Notes under the pieces: generated by a model
What the model saw: only the letters and a program-made list of their open reading frames with translations
The model's database searches: none
What the model was told of the DNA's origin: nothing
In this document: in pieces, positions 3,298 through 59,415 of the stretch
How positions within the stretch are numbered: the stretch's first letter is position 1
Layout: each line of letters starts with the position of its first letter
Position numbers and translations under genes: made by a program
IMG/VR virus record: IMGVR_UViG_3300035694_000001
Location: 31,771 to 95,770 of that record
Length of the DNA: 64,000 nt
From: a virus
Direction: 5' to 3' (one strand)

Positions 3298-3358
3298 TAG
3301 GCCGCCTGGGACTCGAACCCAGAAAAGGCGGATGCTCTACCAATTGAGCTAACGGCCC
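3298..3358 (-). ncRNA. 61-nt tRNA-like RNA lacking most of the anticodon arm (tRNA-Lys(UUU)-like remnant)
   Basis: GGGCCGT/GCGGCCT acceptor, TAGCTCAATTGGTAGAGC D-arm, CTGGGTTCGAGTCCCAG T-arm; only ATCCGCCTTTT between D and T arms; no encoded CCA. Confidence 0.8.
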
Positions 3359-51445: not shown

Positions 51446-52915
51446 CGCTAGGTGCCCCCTGTTGCGGGCTGTTGACCCTGCTTGACCTGCGATGTTGTGC
51501 CCTGTTGACCCCTGGCTAGCTTTGCGGTAACGTTGTTGAGCAGACCAACAAACTGAGGGTGTCAAACCCAACGGAGGGGAACTATGCATGAACGAAGCGC
51601 GGTAGATGGTGACGAGCTGGTAACCATCGAGCCGGCCGCAGAGCCCCGGCAGTACCTCACGCGGGTAGATGAGTTCGAGGTGTGGAGCATCCAGACTGCA
51701 GCCGAGATTGCCCAGGACTACGAGTACAGCCACTACAGCGGGTGTGGTCGCCCGGACGTCATCATGCTGTTGTCGCTCGATGGCACCGCACCGGAGTGGG
51801 TAACTGCCGTGATCATGGCTCACTTGGCCGACGAAGACGATTACCTCTACACCACCTATGAACTACGGGATGCATCAGGCAACACACATGACCGGTTTAC
51901 GGTCAAAATTGATGGGAGAGCGTGATGACTGTTTGGGGTTTTCTTACAGGAGACCATAGCAAAACTAGCCTTCAAAGTAGCCGAGAGCCTGAGCAAGATG
52001 CGGATTGCACGTGCTACAAAAATATGTTCGGGAGCTGGGTGCTCGACCCTCGCTGTCCATCTTCCATCCGACGCAAGGCCGCCCAGTGAGATGAGTAAGC
52101 AGCGATGTGCCCGCTGCGGACATACAACGCCCTATTGCGAGCGGTGCAAGCGCAGCGACCCGTTCCTTGGTGGTCGAGTCAATAATCAGTATTTCTGCCA
52201 CACATACAGCTCTGAGTATCCGACGTGTTATATGCGCGAAACCCAGGAAGGTTCCAAATCATGAATACCACAATGACAATCCAAGATGCCAACGTAATTC
52301 GGCTGCGTGAGATCAATCCTGAGCGGGTCTATGCTGAGGCAGTAGGCATCGAAGCCCGGCAGGCCTGTGACACTGATTTTCTACACGGCAAGGCCGTGGT
52401 GTCGATCTGGCCGGAAGGCCACCCATACCTCGATGCGGTGTGCATGGCGTGCGCGGTGCCGGTTATCGAAGGATGGCTCACCTTGGATGTCTGCGATTAC
52501 GTTACGGTTCGGGTGCTGGCATGACTTACCAAGCGCCAGTCGAGTTGCTCTCCGCTGCAGAAAGTGTTTTCGATGGTTGGTATGCGGAGTCTTCTCGTAT
52601 TGATTGGGAAGATTTTATTGACCGGCTAGAGACGTACGCGGGTGTTGACATGGGCAGTGACATGACGTCGCCAGCCATCCAAGCTGTACAACGACATATA
52701 CGGACTTACCGGAAGCTAGAGAGTTAAATTATGGCGGCCCTATTACAAGTTCTTAATGACCTAGCCCAGACGGGCTGGGACGGGCTGAGCCCAATCTTCG
52801 CAGCGGTTTGGAGCAAGGGTGTGCTCGCCACGCTGGCGGCCGTGGCGTTCGTGCTCTGGGCATGGAAAGCCTCGTGAGCTGTAACACTGTTGAGCTGAAC
52901 AACGACATACTGAGT

Positions 52916-53557
52916 ATGGAAGACAGCAACGTAGTCGCCAAGGCTCTAGCCACCAACCTTCTCATTGCTCTGCTGAAGGCTGGCGCCGGTTGGGTGACAG
53001 GCTCTGCCTCGTTGCTCTCTGAGGCTGCGCACAGCGTGGTCGATAGCTCTACGGAGGTCATCCTCCTTGGCGGCAGTTGGCACGCTCAGCGGTGGAATAA
53101 TGCCCGGTATTTTTGGGGCCTAGTGGCCAGCATCAACATGTTTGCCATCGGCGGTCTTTACGCCATCTATGAGGGCTACCAGGCTGCCACAGAGCCGGCC
53201 AAGGCCGGCACGGCACTTTGGATGGGACTTATCGTGCTGACCGTCTCCTTCGGGTTGGAGTGCACGTCTTGGGTGCGCGCGGTCCGCACGCTGGCGGCTG
53301 AGCGCGGGGGACAGAGTTGGTACCGGCTGTTGCGCACAACTTGCAGCACAGACATCAAGGCTGTGCTGGTCGAGGACTCTGCGGACTTGACGGGATGTGT
53401 GCTGGCTGGCTTGGGGCTCAGCCTCCGAGGGCTGACCGGCTCCGCTGTTTGGGACGGCATAGCTTCCATCCTGATCGGCTGCATGCTCATCGGAATGGCT
53501 TACGAGCTAGGCGCCCAAAATTTCAAGCTGTTAGTTACCAAGGAGGTGACAGCATGA
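52916..53557 (+). CDS. cation diffusion facilitator (CDF) transporter lacking the cytosolic C-terminal domain
   Basis: NLLIALLK..TGSASLLSEAAHSVVD..EDSAD..WDGIASILIG. Confidence 0.85.
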   Translation: MEDSNVVAKALATNLLIALLKAGAGWVTGSASLLSEAAHSVVDSSTEVILLGGSWHAQRWNNARYFWGLVASINMFAIGGLYAIYEGYQAATEPAKAGTALWMGLIVLTVSFGLECTSWVRAVRTLAAERGGQSWYRLLRTTCSTDIKAVLVEDSADLTGCVLAGLGLSLRGLTGSAVWDGIASILIGCMLIGMAYELGAQNFKLLVTKEVTA

Positions 53558-54928: not shown

Positions 54929-55387
54929 TGATAAAAGACGTGATGGACACACCAGCGGTGGCCGCTTACCTCGGTTATGCAAATCTTAATGGCGTCAGTG
55001 TGTGGGCGAAACGGCGTGGAATTAAACCGCTGTATAAGCAACCAGGGCACAAGGGTTTCAATGTGTATGCACGAAAGGATGTTGTCGAGGGCAAGGAGAA
55101 TATGCCGGGACAGGGCAGGAGGTCAACGAAGTAGCGTAGCTGACTACTGCGTGTCGTGCTTTCGCTAGCCCTCGGTAACTTAGCAGCATCCTGGGCACCT
55201 AGGCTCTCGACGGCAACCGTCGCCCGTCCGGGGCGTCTATCTGGGCACTACCAGTAGAGGGAGCCGTGTATATGAAGGGTCTGCGGGTTACGCAGCTGCT
55301 TGAAGCCTGGTGGGGTCACCACCGCACGCCGCGCGGCCGGCACAGGTTGGGACGGCTGCACTCCTCCGGCGGTCGCCACCTCGCCGC

Positions 55388-55891
55388 GTGAGCCCGGTAC
55401 CGGTGCTCTACCTCGATCTTGATGGCACTGTGCGTCACGGTCTTGACGAGCTGGGCAGGTTCGTGACCAGCCCTGATGATGTGGTGATCTTCCCTGAAGC
55501 GGTAGAGATGATGCGGCGCTGGAAGGTGGCCGGCGGCCGGATTGTTGGTGTGTCTAATCAAGGCGGCATCGCCCTCGGCCATCTAACCATGCATAGTTGC
55601 GCAGAAACGATGATGCGCACTCATGAACTAACTAGTCAGCTGTTCGATAAAATTTTGTGGTGTCGTCACCACCCACAAGCTGAAGATCCGCTGCAAGCTC
55701 GTTGTTGGTGTAGGAAGCCCGCTCCTGGTCTCTTGATTGAGGGGGCCTTGTATATGGCTTTGGATCATAAAACAGAAATTTACCCTCTCTCCATGGCTTT
55801 GATGGTGGGAGATCGACCAGAAGACAAAGAGTGTGCTCGATCAGCAAGCATTGATTTTCAGTGGGCTCACGAATGGAGGGCTCAAACATGA
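55388..55891 (+). CDS. HAD IIIA phosphatase (GmhB/HisB-like)
   Basis: DLDGT, SNQGGI, CWCRKP, MVGDR. Confidence 0.88.
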   Translation: MSPVPVLYLDLDGTVRHGLDELGRFVTSPDDVVIFPEAVEMMRRWKVAGGRIVGVSNQGGIALGHLTMHSCAETMMRTHELTSQLFDKILWCRHHPQAEDPLQARCWCRKPAPGLLIEGALYMALDHKTEIYPLSMALMVGDRPEDKECARSASIDFQWAHEWRAQT

Positions 55892-57134: not shown

Positions 57135-57143
57135 TACGCTGCG

Positions 57144-57297
57144 TGATCGCTAGTGGTGTAAAGGAGGCAGGGGTGCCCTGGCCAGCGTGGCGGCAACGGC
57201 AGACCTGCTCATGACAGGCAGCGTCAGTTCCGCGTGGCTTCAAGCACGCCGGCCGAGGGGCCGGTAATGCTGGGTTCGAGTCCCAGCCTAGCGATCA
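57144..57297 (+). ncRNA. ~154-nt tRNA-like RNA with a greatly expanded anticodon domain
   Basis: TGATCGCTAG/CTAGCGATCA closing stem, D-like arm, canonical GGTTCGAGTCC T-arm, long stem ending in loop CTCATGA. Confidence 0.7.
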
Positions 57298-57433
57298 GTG
57301 CTTGGTTGCAAAAATGCAATCACCTCTCTGACCTGCGAAGTTTGCACATAAGCTGTCGCTTGACTACCGTCTTTCGACAGGACGACGTGTGCCTGCAGCA
57401 CAGCGCCGCAAGTTCCCCTGCGTGGGGAAGCCA

Positions 57434-57483
57434 CGAACCGACCGAGGCGAAGCAACCCCCGACTCCCCGCCTCGGTCGGTTCG
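57434..57483. other. 16-bp perfect hairpin with C-rich loop
   Basis: CGAACCGACCGAGGCG / CGCCTCGGTCGGTTCG. Confidence 0.65.
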
Positions 57484-57501
57484 CACACATTTGGGGATAA
57501 T

Positions 57502-58758: not shown

Positions 58759-59415
<657 letters not shown>

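What the first reader, a model, noticed from the sequence alone, without database searches (positions are those of the whole stretch)
57144..57297. tRNA mimic with a ~100-nt extended anticodon arm ending in a CAU loop
The acceptor-like stem, D-like arm and T-arm are tRNA-like. The anticodon arm is replaced by a long interrupted helix (GGCCAGCGTG/CACGCCGGCC, GCGG/CCGC, AAC/GTT) capped by CCTG-CTCATGA-CAGG, a 7-nt anticodon-type loop with CAT at 57210-57212. It is too short for tmRNA or a group I intron and is not permuted like YrlA. Inference: a decoy for anticodon nucleases or synthetases, a spliced/processed tRNA-Met, or a new ncRNA class placed at the early/late boundary.
Basis: partly seen in the sequence, partly recalled or inferred. 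Interest (0 to 1): 0.75.

Follow-up and report, generated by a model that had tools for sequence, protein, structure and literature searches.

The report
Self-pairing tRNA-Gln look-alike phage RNA
This actinophage carries a conserved ~150-base RNA gene derived from a glutamine tRNA that cannot decode, because its anticodon loop is degenerate and its D loop has grown a long arm tipped by a self-complementary six-base loop, which suggests the RNA pairs with a second copy of itself; it matches no described RNA family.

Summary

**Relatives.** I found related copies in three other uncultured actinophage contigs and in one Pseudonocardiales MAG, which also appears as a near-identical metagenome contig. 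That makes five lineages.

**Fold.** On the six-sequence alignment the fold has 95% of cells paired and 11 pairs with compensatory changes; 0 of 500 shuffles did as well.
- 7-bp acceptor stem, U8, and a 4-bp D stem with an AAAGG...A D loop identical to actinobacterial tRNA-Gln(UUG).
- A 5-bp anticodon-type stem closed by a 5-7-nt loop that varies and cannot decode.
- A 6-bp T stem.
- An ~83-nt two-hairpin domain inserted in the D loop. It does not replace the anticodon arm.

**What fails.** The 'CAU anticodon' is not conserved.

**New observation.** The 7-8-nt loop holding CAU is one free base followed by a 6-nt palindrome in every lineage: UCAUGA, UCGCGA, GAUAUC, GUGCAC (the last in two lineages, in one of them followed by a further C). 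The chance estimate is about 2e-7. This points to loop-loop homodimers.

**Context.** Three phage lineages have a TANNNT hexamer at -12 to -7. One temperate relative has the gene beside its integrase.

**Verdict.** A new, rare, non-decoding tRNA-derived phage RNA of untested function. It is not a tRNA-Met, tmRNA or Y RNA. This scan has noted tRNA look-alikes with self-pairing loops in other phages before.

The parts
57135..57140 (+). -10-like hexamer TACGCT, 6 nt upstream of position 1 of the RNA
   Evidence: A TANNNT hexamer is the only one within 45 nt upstream and sits at exactly -12..-7 in the window, L002 (TAGGTT) and L003 (TAAACT). The consensus sigma-70 scan found nothing. Its reading as a promoter is inference from the actinobacterial -10 consensus.
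57147..57153 (+). Acceptor stem, 5' strand (UCGCUAG). In this phage the helix runs on to 57144.
   Evidence: It pairs with 57288-57294. helix 1: 97.6% paired, and one pair switches U-A to C-G.
57154..57155 (+). U8 G9 linker
   Evidence: Invariant in all six sequences.
57156..57159 (+). D stem, 5' strand (GUGU)
   Evidence: It pairs with 57244-57247. helix 2: 100% paired, with G-C to A-U and U.G to C-G changes. It is identical to the D stem of the tRNA-Gln(UUG) of genome G001.
57160..57164 (+). Start of the D loop, AAAGG (A14, A15, A16, G18, G19 equivalents)
   Evidence: Invariant and the same as the D loop of actinobacterial tRNA-Gln.
57166..57183 (+). Hairpin H1 of the D-loop insert (GG-CAGGG-GUG-CCCUG-G-CC)
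   Evidence: helix 3: three pairs with compensatory changes. Loop length varies from 3 to 8 nt among lineages.
57184..57239 (+). Long arm of the insert. It comprises P3 AGC/GCU, a symmetric 3x3 loop GNG/GNG, P4 GCGG/CCGC, weak P5 AAC/GUU, an asymmetric internal loop (GGCAGA / CAGCGUCA), and P6.
   Evidence: P3 and P4 are invariant, so they are compatible with the fold but untested. P5 is weak (4 of 6 sequences unpaired at one pair). helices 4-5.
57204..57218 (+). P6 hairpin CCUG / CUCAUGA / CAGG at the tip of the long arm
   Evidence: helix 6: 100% paired, with U-A to C-G in four sequences.
57209..57214 (+). Self-complementary hexamer UCAUGA filling loop positions 2-7; candidate kissing-loop dimerisation site
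   Evidence: The same register holds a different palindrome in each lineage: UCGCGA, GAUAUC and GUGCAC, the last in two lineages. Chance estimate about 2e-7.
57240..57243 (+). Junction UCAA, ending in the A21 equivalent
   Evidence: It is part of the invariant block GGCUUCAAGCA.
57244..57247 (+). D stem, 3' strand (GCAC)
   Evidence: helix 2.
57248..57265 (+). Anticodon-arm analogue: G26-like base, CCGGC stem, loop CGAGGG (or a 7-bp stem with a GAGG tetraloop), GCCGG, U44-like base
   Evidence: helix 7: G-C to A-U in three sequences. The stem is identical to the anticodon stem of a tRNA-Gln(UUG). The loop is 5-7 nt, variable, and lacks U33.
57266..57268 (+). Variable-loop remainder AAU
   Evidence: The AU before the T stem is invariant and is compatible with an A15-U48 pair.
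57269..57287 (+). T arm, with a 6-bp stem GCUGGG/CCCAGC and loop UUCGAGU
   Evidence: helix 8: three pairs with compensatory changes. The sixth pair G-C is A.C in two lineages.
57288..57294 (+). Acceptor stem, 3' strand (CUAGCGA), followed by UCA. No CCA is encoded here.
   Evidence: helix 1. L002 and L156 read GCGACCA at this place.
57304..57321 (+). Small hairpin GGUUGCA-AAAA-UGCAAUC directly 3' of the RNA; possible end of the transcription unit
   Evidence: Read. A stronger hairpin of related sequence (UUAGUUGCA...UGCAACUAA) closes the three-RNA cluster of the relative L002. Its role is inference.

Best explanation
The locus is a stand-alone gene for a ~150-nt non-coding RNA that descends from an actinobacterial tRNA-Gln(UUG).

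**Shown by comparison**
- It keeps the tRNA four-way junction and the nucleotides that build the L-shaped core.
- Its anticodon loop has decayed to a variable 5-7-nt cap.
- Its T stem has a sixth pair.
- Its D loop, between the GG and A21, carries an ~83-nt three-way-junction domain.
- The long arm of that domain ends in a loop made of one free base plus a 6-nt palindrome.

**Inferred**
- In the phages that lack an adjacent integrase, the RNA is transcribed from its own -10 element, starting at or one base before position 1.
- It is trimmed and kept stable like a tRNA.
- Two molecules join through the palindromic loops (a kissing complex, as at the HIV-1 dimerisation site). This gives a two-fold symmetric particle with two anticodon-less tRNA bodies.
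- It then acts as a non-decoding tRNA mimic that binds, and so titrates or recruits, a host protein that reads the acceptor/T-arm/elbow of tRNA rather than the anticodon.
- In temperate relatives the same gene lies at the attP position next to the integrase and may also serve as the attachment site.
For: **Conservation and structure**
- Six sequences from five lineages were found.
- Covariance model R1 scores them at 133-169 bits.
- 95.1% of cells are paired and 11 pairs have compensatory changes, with 0/500 shuffles as good.

**tRNA-Gln ancestry**
- Five of the six truncated ~75-nt matches to the model in sampled actinobacterial genomes are tRNA-Gln(UUG) genes; the sixth is a tRNA-Pro.
- With the insert removed, the body aligns best to tRNA-Gln among the tRNAs that ARAGORN found in the 30 fetched tRNA loci of G001. 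The D arm GUGU-AAAGG..A-GCAC is identical.

**Not decoding**
- The anticodon-position loops are CGAGGG, CAGAGGG, AGCAG and CGUGGG.
- ARAGORN and Rfam do not call it.

**Palindrome rule**
- UCAUGA, UCGCGA, GAUAUC and GUGCAC (the last in two lineages) all occupy loop positions 2-7.
- All three symmetric pairs differ between UCAUGA (this window) and GUGCAC (the syntenic relative L002).
- The chance estimate is about 2e-7.
- Of the other three loop types, only one H1 loop is itself a palindrome (UUAA in L002), and most T loops hold the tetramer UCGA within the conserved UUCGAGY; neither changes sequence while staying palindromic.
- The palindrome axis is offset from the stem axis, so the hairpin is not a simple DNA inverted repeat.

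**Selection within phages**
- The window and L002 are syntenic relatives (neighbouring proteins 72-74% identical). Their RNAs differ by many compensatory changes.

**Own promoter**
- TANNNT sits at -12..-7 in three phage lineages.
- In L003 the gene is antisense to both neighbours.

**attP link**
- In L156 a tyrosine integrase ends 22 nt upstream of the RNA.
- Distant relatives of that integrase sit next to ordinary tRNA genes.
Against: - There are no expression data.
- Dimerisation is inferred from sequence alone, and only four distinct palindromes exist.
- P3 and P4 never vary, so they are untested. P5 is weak.
- Single-sequence minimum-free-energy folds of the insert differ from the consensus, and in two sequences they partly bury the palindrome.
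- A shorter copy in a second bacterial genome (unpublished genome G360) lacks H1 and the palindromic loop. The two near-identical bacterial sequences differ at conserved positions. So chromosomal copies may be decaying, or the arm may be dispensable.
- No partner protein is conserved beside the gene.
- The family is tiny: it was found in 1 of 185,579 species genomes by pattern search and in 2 of about 450 sampled genomes by model search.
Confidence: 0.5

Rival explanations
1. Integration-site relic. The sequence is a copy of a host small-RNA or tRNA-type gene carried for site-specific integration (attP). In this integrase-less phage it is a leftover with no RNA function of its own. The structural conservation reflects the host gene.
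For: - In L156 the element sits between the lysis genes and a tyrosine integrase, the usual attP place.
- That integrase's distant relatives flank tRNA genes.
- The window copy lies just after an excisionase-type HTH_17 gene.
- Chromosomal copies exist in a Pseudonocardiales MAG and in one unpublished genome.
Against: - The phage has no tyrosine integrase, yet it keeps the whole 150-nt fold.
- The window and its syntenic relative L002 differ by compensatory changes in five helices and in the palindrome. That requires selection on RNA pairing within the phage lineage.
- An attP normally needs only the 3' part of the gene.
- A -10-like hexamer is kept at a fixed distance.
- The host gene is almost never found, and the bacterial copies look less well kept than the phage ones.
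Confidence: 0.15
2. RNA-processing punctuation. This would be a tRNA-shaped module at the 3' end of the upstream operon that recruits RNase P/RNase Z to cut and stabilise the mRNA, as with mascRNA or mitochondrial tRNA punctuation. It would have no function as a free RNA.
For: - It starts 13 nt after the stop codon of the co-directional HTH gene. In L156 it starts 22 nt after the integrase gene.
- The same genome has a 61-nt anticodon-less tRNA-like element elsewhere.
- L002 has two more tRNA-like modules in a row.
Against: - A processing signal needs only the acceptor/T-arm. It does not explain the invariant junction sequences or the covarying palindrome of the 83-nt insert.
- In L003 the element is antisense to its neighbours.
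- In bacteria it stands alone between unrelated genes.
- It has its own -10-like hexamer.
Confidence: 0.1
3. A decoding tRNA interrupted by an intron: the first reader's tRNA-Met, or ARAGORN's low-threshold call of tRNA-Lys(CUU) with a 58-nt intron and a long variable arm.
For: - With introns allowed and the score threshold lowered to 90%, ARAGORN draws a class-II tRNA with anticodon CUU.
- CAU sits in a 7-nt loop in this one phage.
Against: - ARAGORN's D stem (GUGU/GCAG) and anticodon stem (GUGCC/..GCAC) cannot form in L003 or L002. The rival D stem covaries.
- CAU is absent from the loop in every other lineage.
- No self-splicing intron family matches.
- Removing the insert leaves a 5-7-nt loop without U33.
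Confidence: 0.02

Closest known systems
Actinobacterial tRNA-Gln(UUG) (canonical tRNA, Rfam RF00005)
   Same: - U1-A72-type first pair, U8, and the D arm GUGU-AAAGG-(C)A-GCAC.
- CCGGC/GCCGG anticodon stem, 4-nt variable loop, and UUCGAGU T loop.
- This is the likely ancestor.
   Different: - ~83-nt insert between G19 and A21.
- Anticodon loop of 5-7 nt with no U33 and no conserved triplet.
- T stem of 6 bp, giving a 13-bp acceptor/T stack, or 6+6 if processing starts one base in.
- Below the Rfam and ARAGORN thresholds.
Bacterial Y RNA YrlA (tRNA-like module bound by Ro60/Rsr; PMC4201824)
   Same: - A non-decoding RNA with T-arm, D-arm and acceptor mimicry.
- Also found in actinobacteria and their phages.
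- D. radiodurans Yrn1 likewise has a 5-bp 'anticodon' stem with a 6-nt loop.
   Different: - In YrlA the 5'/3' ends form the Ro-binding stem and the tRNA module is permuted. Here the ends form the acceptor stem.
- No Ro60 (TROVE) gene is in this genome.
- No Rfam hit.
HIV-1 dimerisation initiation site (kissing-loop hairpin; PMC5874298)
   Same: A hairpin loop that carries a 6-nt palindrome which varies between lineages while staying self-complementary. GUGCAC is used in both.
   Different: - The retroviral loop is 9 nt with flanking purines and lies in a genomic 5' UTR.
- Here the loop is 7 nt on a small tRNA-derived RNA of a DNA phage.
- Two of the four palindromes here are AU-rich. Dimerisation is untested.
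Phage T4 RNA C and RNA D (species 1 and 2 RNAs)
   Same: Small stable phage RNAs whose function is still unknown (PMC9697503). That they are made alongside tRNAs and have tRNA-like ends is from my own knowledge, not checked here.
   Different: There is no sequence or fold relation. The T4 RNAs lie in a tRNA cluster, whereas this phage has no canonical tRNA at all.
GOLLD / ROOL / OLE ornate RNAs (PMC12286853)
   Same: Bacterial and phage-associated non-coding RNAs that form homo-oligomers (abstract of PMC12286853). That the contacts are loop-loop and that the genes often lie next to tRNA genes is my own recollection, not read in that paper.
   Different: Those RNAs are 400-800 nt and form large multimers. 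This one is 150 nt, is built on a tRNA body, and has one palindromic loop, which predicts a dimer.
tmRNA tRNA-like domain
   Same: The acceptor stem plus T arm are formed by the two ends of a longer RNA, and a long helix leaves the D-loop side.
   Different: - No tag reading frame or pseudoknots.
- G3-C70 instead of G3.U70.
- It keeps a D stem and an anticodon-arm analogue.
- ARAGORN finds no tmRNA.

Membership tests
Canonical decoding tRNA (RF00005) | Reaches the Rfam gathering score or is detected by a tRNA finder | tested here: not met
   There is no RF00005 hit at this place even at E<=10. ARAGORN at default settings finds none.
Canonical decoding tRNA (RF00005) | 7-nt anticodon loop with U33 and a conserved anticodon | tested here: not met
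   The loops at the anticodon position are 5-7 nt: CGAGGG, CAGAGGG, AGCAG, CGUGGG.
Canonical decoding tRNA (RF00005) | Four-way junction with U8, A14, G18G19, A21, T-loop UUC..A and a 7+5 bp acceptor/T stack | tested here: inconclusive
   The core nucleotides are invariant and the four helices covary. However, the T stem is 6 bp and the D loop holds 83 extra nt.
Intron-containing tRNA (tRNA-Met or ARAGORN's tRNA-Lys) | Exons that give the same cloverleaf and anticodon in relatives | tested here: not met
   ARAGORN's stems are broken in L002 and L003. CAU and CUU are not kept in a loop.
tmRNA | Tag-peptide frame, pseudoknots, G3.U70 | tested here: not met
   ARAGORN's tmRNA search finds none, even at 80% threshold. 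Pair 3-70 is G-C in all sequences.
Y RNA / YrlA | Encoded near a Ro60 (TROVE) gene | tested here: not met
   PF05731 is absent from the complete 95.8-kb genome.
Y RNA / YrlA | 5' and 3' ends form the Ro-binding stem, and the tRNA-like module is internal | tested here: not met
   The ends form the acceptor stem.
Kissing-loop dimerisation hairpin (HIV-1 DIS type) | Apical loop with a self-complementary hexamer kept through sequence change | tested here: met
   Four different palindromes occupy the same register in five lineages.
Kissing-loop dimerisation hairpin (HIV-1 DIS type) | The RNA forms dimers through that loop | not testable with these tools
   This needs native gels or SEC of the transcript and of loop mutants.
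Phage attP overlapping a tRNA-type gene | Integrase gene adjacent to the element | tested here: not met
   It is met in the relative L156. It is not met in this genome, which has no PF00589 match.

The most novel reading that the evidence does not exclude
A new class of phage RNA: an anticodon-less tRNA-Gln body that must dimerise through a palindromic loop on a D-loop arm. The symmetric dimer would trap or bridge a host factor that recognises the tRNA acceptor end. One example is an abortive-infection toxin of the MenT/AbiEii nucleotidyltransferase type, common in Actinobacteria, and the RNA would then work as an anti-defence decoy.
Probability: 0.12. Interest if true: 0.85.

Novelty: new variant of a known kind. 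Interest (0 to 1): 0.62.

Why it matters
Phage tRNA genes are usually explained by codon supply or by replacing tRNAs that host defences cut. This RNA cannot decode, yet phages that carry no ordinary tRNA keep it under clear structural selection. It is therefore a clean case of a tRNA body put to another use.

The covarying palindromic loop gives a concrete hypothesis that is cheap to test: RNA homodimerisation. If confirmed, it would be the first small tRNA-derived RNA known to self-associate in this way. It would also add a dimer-sized member to the recently recognised group of phage-associated self-assembling RNAs.

The work also shows that insertions in the D loop hide such genes from tRNA finders and from Rfam.

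Tried and rejected
**Database and finder searches with no match**
- ARAGORN default, and Rfam at the gathering score and at E<=10: no call at the locus. The same permissive Rfam scan on four homologous loci gave no family in common.
- megablast and blastn against 50,697 GenBank phages: no homologue. blastn against PLSDB plasmids: only an ordinary tRNA on a Streptomyces plasmid.

**Pattern scans**
- Viral, metagenome and genome collections gave many chance or coding matches, which were filtered out by regular expression and by the model.
- A string quoted in an earlier scan note, which may describe a relative, found nothing related.

**Alternative pairings rejected on the alignment**
- ARAGORN's D and anticodon stems.
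- A GCGUG/CACGC stem that would present CUUCAAG as a UCA anticodon loop. It is broken in L003.
- The CGUG/CGUG register.
- Pairing of the 3' trailer GUGCUUG with CAAGCAC, which is seen only in this phage.

**Partner hunt**
- No TROVE/Ro60 gene and no tyrosine integrase.
- The HAD gene at 55310-55891 is the only protein gene shared with the otherwise unrelated L003. It is a GmhB-like HAD-IIIA sugar-phosphate phosphatase, not a polynucleotide 3'-phosphatase. Three near-complete phages with this gene lack the RNA.

**Host gene hunt**
- Model searches of about 450 genomes of the order, class and family of the one MAG that has it gave only ordinary tRNA-length matches, mostly tRNA-Gln, and one short copy.
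- No att-like repeat of the RNA's 3' end lies next to the chromosomal copy. No second copy is in that MAG.

The 16 homologues of the upstream HTH protein could therefore not be used to fetch more copies.
Full report
**Where the window lies.** The window is the right-hand 64 kb of a complete 95,770-bp IMG/VR virus with direct terminal repeats. A secreted Rpf-type transglycosylase with a LysM domain at 58786-59415 marks it as a phage of Actinobacteria. The whole genome has no canonical tRNA or tmRNA. It has no tyrosine integrase and no Ro60/TROVE gene.

**Checking the observation.**
- The two ends pair over 10 bp.
- A good T arm (GCUGGG-UUCGAGU-CCCAGC) precedes the 3' strand.
- CCUG-CUCAUGA-CAGG lies at 57204-57218, with CAT at 57210-57212.
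- The strand folds better than shuffles (z = -2.6).
- ARAGORN and Rfam find nothing here, even at E<=10.
- With introns allowed and a lowered threshold, ARAGORN draws a class-II 'tRNA-Lys(CUU)' with a 58-nt intron. That drawing does not survive comparison (see below).

**Relatives.** A neighbour-protein search and DNA-pattern scans, filtered by regular expression and by a covariance model, gave six sequences in five lineages.
- The window itself.
- L002: a syntenic phage contig whose neighbouring proteins are 72-74% identical.
- L003: a phage contig that shares only one protein gene with the window.
- L156: a temperate-phage contig.
- L033 and L192: a metagenome contig and a Pseudonocardiales MAG with almost the same sequence, in a plainly chromosomal setting. 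The flanking genes are an S9 peptidase and a GNAT on one side, and catalase and Fur on the other.

Nothing similar is in 50,697 GenBank phages or in PLSDB plasmids.

**The fold.** I built the structure by hand from compensatory changes, made model R1 and counted pairs on the model-based alignment A6.
- 95.1% of cells are paired.
- 11 of 45 pairs have changes on both sides.
- 0 of 500 shuffles do as well.
- Only 31-43% of cells are paired when partners are slid by 1-3 columns.

The helices are as follows.
- Acceptor stem: 57147-57153 with 57288-57294.
- D stem: 57156-57159 with 57244-57247. It shows G-C to A-U and U.G to C-G changes.
- Hairpin H1: 57166-57183.
- A long arm made of P3 (AGC/GCU), a 3x3 loop (GNG/GNG), P4 (GCGG/CCGC), a weak P5, an asymmetric loop and P6 (57204-57218).
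- A hairpin at 57248-57265.
- A 6-bp T stem within 57269-57287.

It is 68% paired, has no compensatory change, and six of its ten pairs are broken somewhere. Its 3' strand is really the D-stem strand plus the 5' half of the 57248-57265 hairpin.

So the long arm is not a replaced anticodon arm. It is an ~83-nt three-way-junction domain inserted in the D loop, between the invariant AAAGG and the A before the D-stem 3' strand. The anticodon arm is still present as a 5-bp stem, but with a 5-7-nt variable loop (CGAGGG, CAGAGGG, AGCAG, CGUGGG) that cannot decode.

**Ancestry.** The model's weak, ~75-nt matches in sampled actinobacterial genomes are tRNA-Gln(UUG) genes in five of six cases; the sixth is a tRNA-Pro. 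With the insert cut out, the body aligns best to tRNA-Gln among the tRNAs that ARAGORN found in the 30 fetched tRNA loci of the MAG. Those tRNAs share the D arm GUGU-AAAGG-(C)A-GCAC. Another tRNA-Gln shares the CCGGC/GCCGG anticodon stem. U8, A14, GG, A21, the T-loop UUC..A and an A..U pair at the 15-48 places are invariant, so an L-shaped core is likely.

One extra pair at the base of the T stem is G-C in three lineages and A.C in two. It gives a 13-bp acceptor/T stack. If maturation starts one base in, the stack is 6+6. In that case the 3' ends of L002 and L156 read ...GCG-A-CCA. I could not decide between the two registers.

**The loop with 'CAU'.** CAU is not conserved. What is conserved is the loop's form: one free base followed by a 6-nt palindrome that begins at loop position 2 in every lineage and in four of the five runs to the 3' end of the loop.

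| Lineage | Loop | Note |
|---|---|---|
| Window | C-UCAUGA | |
| L156 | A-UCGCGA | |
| L003 | U-GAUAUC | |
| L033 / L192 | A-GUGCAC | |
| L002 | G-GUGCAC-C | the whole 8-mer is a palindrome |

- All three symmetric pairs differ between UCAUGA (this window) and GUGCAC (the syntenic relative L002).
- With the base composition of these RNAs, a hexamer is a palindrome with P = 0.021. Four different palindromes in a fixed register give about 2e-7.
- The other loops do not follow this rule. One H1 loop (UUAA in L002) is itself a palindrome and most T loops hold the tetramer UCGA within the conserved UUCGAGY, but none changes sequence while staying palindromic.
- The palindrome's axis is half a base off the stem's axis, so the hairpin is not one long DNA inverted repeat. 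A dimeric DNA-binding protein is therefore a poor explanation.
- A palindrome in a loop can pair only with the same loop of another molecule. This is the logic of the HIV-1 dimerisation initiation site, where GCGCGC, GUGCAC and GUGCGC prevail (PMC5874298).

I therefore read the tip as a kissing-loop homodimerisation site. This is inference. Predicted hexamer duplexes are -4.2 to -7.9 kcal/mol. Single-sequence folds leave the hexamer 17-76% unpaired.

**Is it a gene of its own?**
- In the window, L002 and L003, the only TANNNT hexamer within 45 nt upstream lies at exactly -12..-7 from position 1: TACGCT, TAGGTT and TAAACT. This matches the actinobacterial -10 consensus (my own knowledge) and places the transcription start at about -1/+1.
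- The simple sigma-70 scan finds nothing.
- In L003 the RNA is antisense to both neighbours.
- A small hairpin follows at 57304-57321. In L002 a stronger hairpin of related sequence closes a cluster that holds two more tRNA-like RNAs.
- Indels between homologues are not multiples of three and fall in loops, so the overlapping mechanical ORFs are not credible.

**Link to integration.**
- In L156 the RNA lies 22 nt after a tyrosine integrase gene, between the lysis genes and a cI-like repressor. This is the usual attP place.
- Distant relatives of that integrase (33% identity) sit beside ordinary tRNA-Met or tRNA-Arg genes.
- In the window the upstream gene is an excisionase-type HTH_17 protein, but there is no integrase. 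An integration module may have been lost.

The pure 'attP relic' reading is weakened by three points.
- Full-length structural conservation, with compensatory changes, between the window and its syntenic relative.
- The fixed -10 hexamer.
- The rarity of a host counterpart.

On the last point, the strict pattern found the RNA in 1 of 185,579 species genomes. Model searches of about 450 genomes of that MAG's order, class and family found it only in the MAG itself and, as a shorter copy, in one more genome. That second genome (G360) is unpublished, so I give no detail beyond this: the copy keeps the 3' two-thirds but lacks H1 and the palindromic loop, and it has a weakened 5' part. This single claim rests on G360. 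The two near-identical bacterial sequences also differ from each other at otherwise invariant or paired positions. Chromosomal copies thus look less well kept than phage copies. Assembly error cannot be excluded.

**Partners.**
- No protein gene accompanies the RNA in all lineages.
- The HAD gene at 55310-55891 is the only gene that L003 shares with the window, and there it is the divergent neighbour of the RNA.
- It is a GmhB-like HAD-IIIA phosphatase with the Cys/His zinc loop, not a polynucleotide phosphatase.
- Three near-complete phages with this gene have no copy of the RNA.
- I treat the link as weak.

**Mechanism.**
- Shown: a conserved, non-decoding, tRNA-Gln-derived fold with a D-loop insert and a covarying palindromic loop.
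- Inferred: its own transcription; tRNA-like maturation and stability; dimer formation; and action as a mimic that engages a protein reading the tRNA body or acceptor end.

Anticodon nucleases are unlikely targets because no anticodon loop is kept. Enzymes or toxins acting on the acceptor end remain possible; one example (my own knowledge) is the MenT/AbiEii nucleotidyltransferases of Actinobacteria. Nothing here tests that.

**Comparison with known RNAs.**
- It is not a tRNA by any operational test.
- It is not a tmRNA: no tag frame, and G3-C70.
- It is not a Y RNA: no Ro60 gene, and the ends form the acceptor stem (PMC4201824).
- In kind it resembles the T4 RNAs C and D, which are stable phage RNAs still without a function (PMC9697503).
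- In its self-association logic it resembles the retroviral dimerisation site and the self-assembling GOLLD/ROOL/OLE RNAs (PMC12286853).
- Earlier notes of this scan describe tRNA look-alikes with self-pairing loops in unrelated phages. I did not test those. They suggest a wider theme, and here the self-pairing loop sits on a D-loop arm rather than at the anticodon position.

**Limits.**
The 16 homologues of the upstream HTH protein could therefore not be used to enlarge the family.
- Five lineages are few.
- P3 and P4 are invariant and therefore unproven.

Noticed in passing
window 3298-3358 (-): A 61-nt tRNA-like element passes the Rfam tRNA threshold (39.4 bits) but has only about 6 nt where the anticodon arm should be. 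Its T arm is the same as that of the main RNA. It lies in the lysis-gene region. In the temperate relative L156, homologous lysis genes border the integrase and the RNA, so this may mark a former attP.
   Followed up: partly
L203 1189-1292 (-) and L203 1317-1362 (-) (same contig as L002, about 140-310 nt downstream of its copy of the RNA): The relative carries two more tRNA-like RNAs in a row. One is a 46-nt acceptor-plus-T-arm minihelix. The other is a 104-nt element that passes the Rfam tRNA threshold (43.5 bits) but has a 41-nt insertion in the anticodon arm, including the 12-nt palindrome GUCGGCGCCGAC. A strong hairpin closes the cluster.
   Followed up: partly
window 55310-55891 (+): A GmhB-like HAD-IIIA phosphatase with a Cys/His zinc loop. 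It is the only protein gene shared between this phage and the otherwise unrelated contig L003, where it is the divergent neighbour of the RNA. Three other phages have the gene without the RNA.
   Followed up: yes
window 52808-53557 (+): A cation-efflux (CDF, PF01545) membrane protein is encoded in the phage's accessory region. This is an unusual cargo gene.
   Followed up: no
window 57409-57486 (+): A long GC-rich hairpin (GAACCGACCGAGGCG...CGCCUCGGUCGGUUC) lies just before the next gene. It has a weak, sub-threshold resemblance to Streptomyces sRNA Scr3202 (20.7 bits against a threshold of 52). It is probably a terminator. L002's locus has a similar sub-threshold hit.
   Followed up: no
L210 2857-2941 (+): An 85-nt tRNA-shaped sequence with a good acceptor stem and T arm that ARAGORN does not call, in another phage that carries the HAD gene.
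   Followed up: no
whole genome G000: This 95.8-kb phage has no canonical tRNA or tmRNA gene, yet it has two anticodon-less tRNA-like elements.
   Followed up: yes
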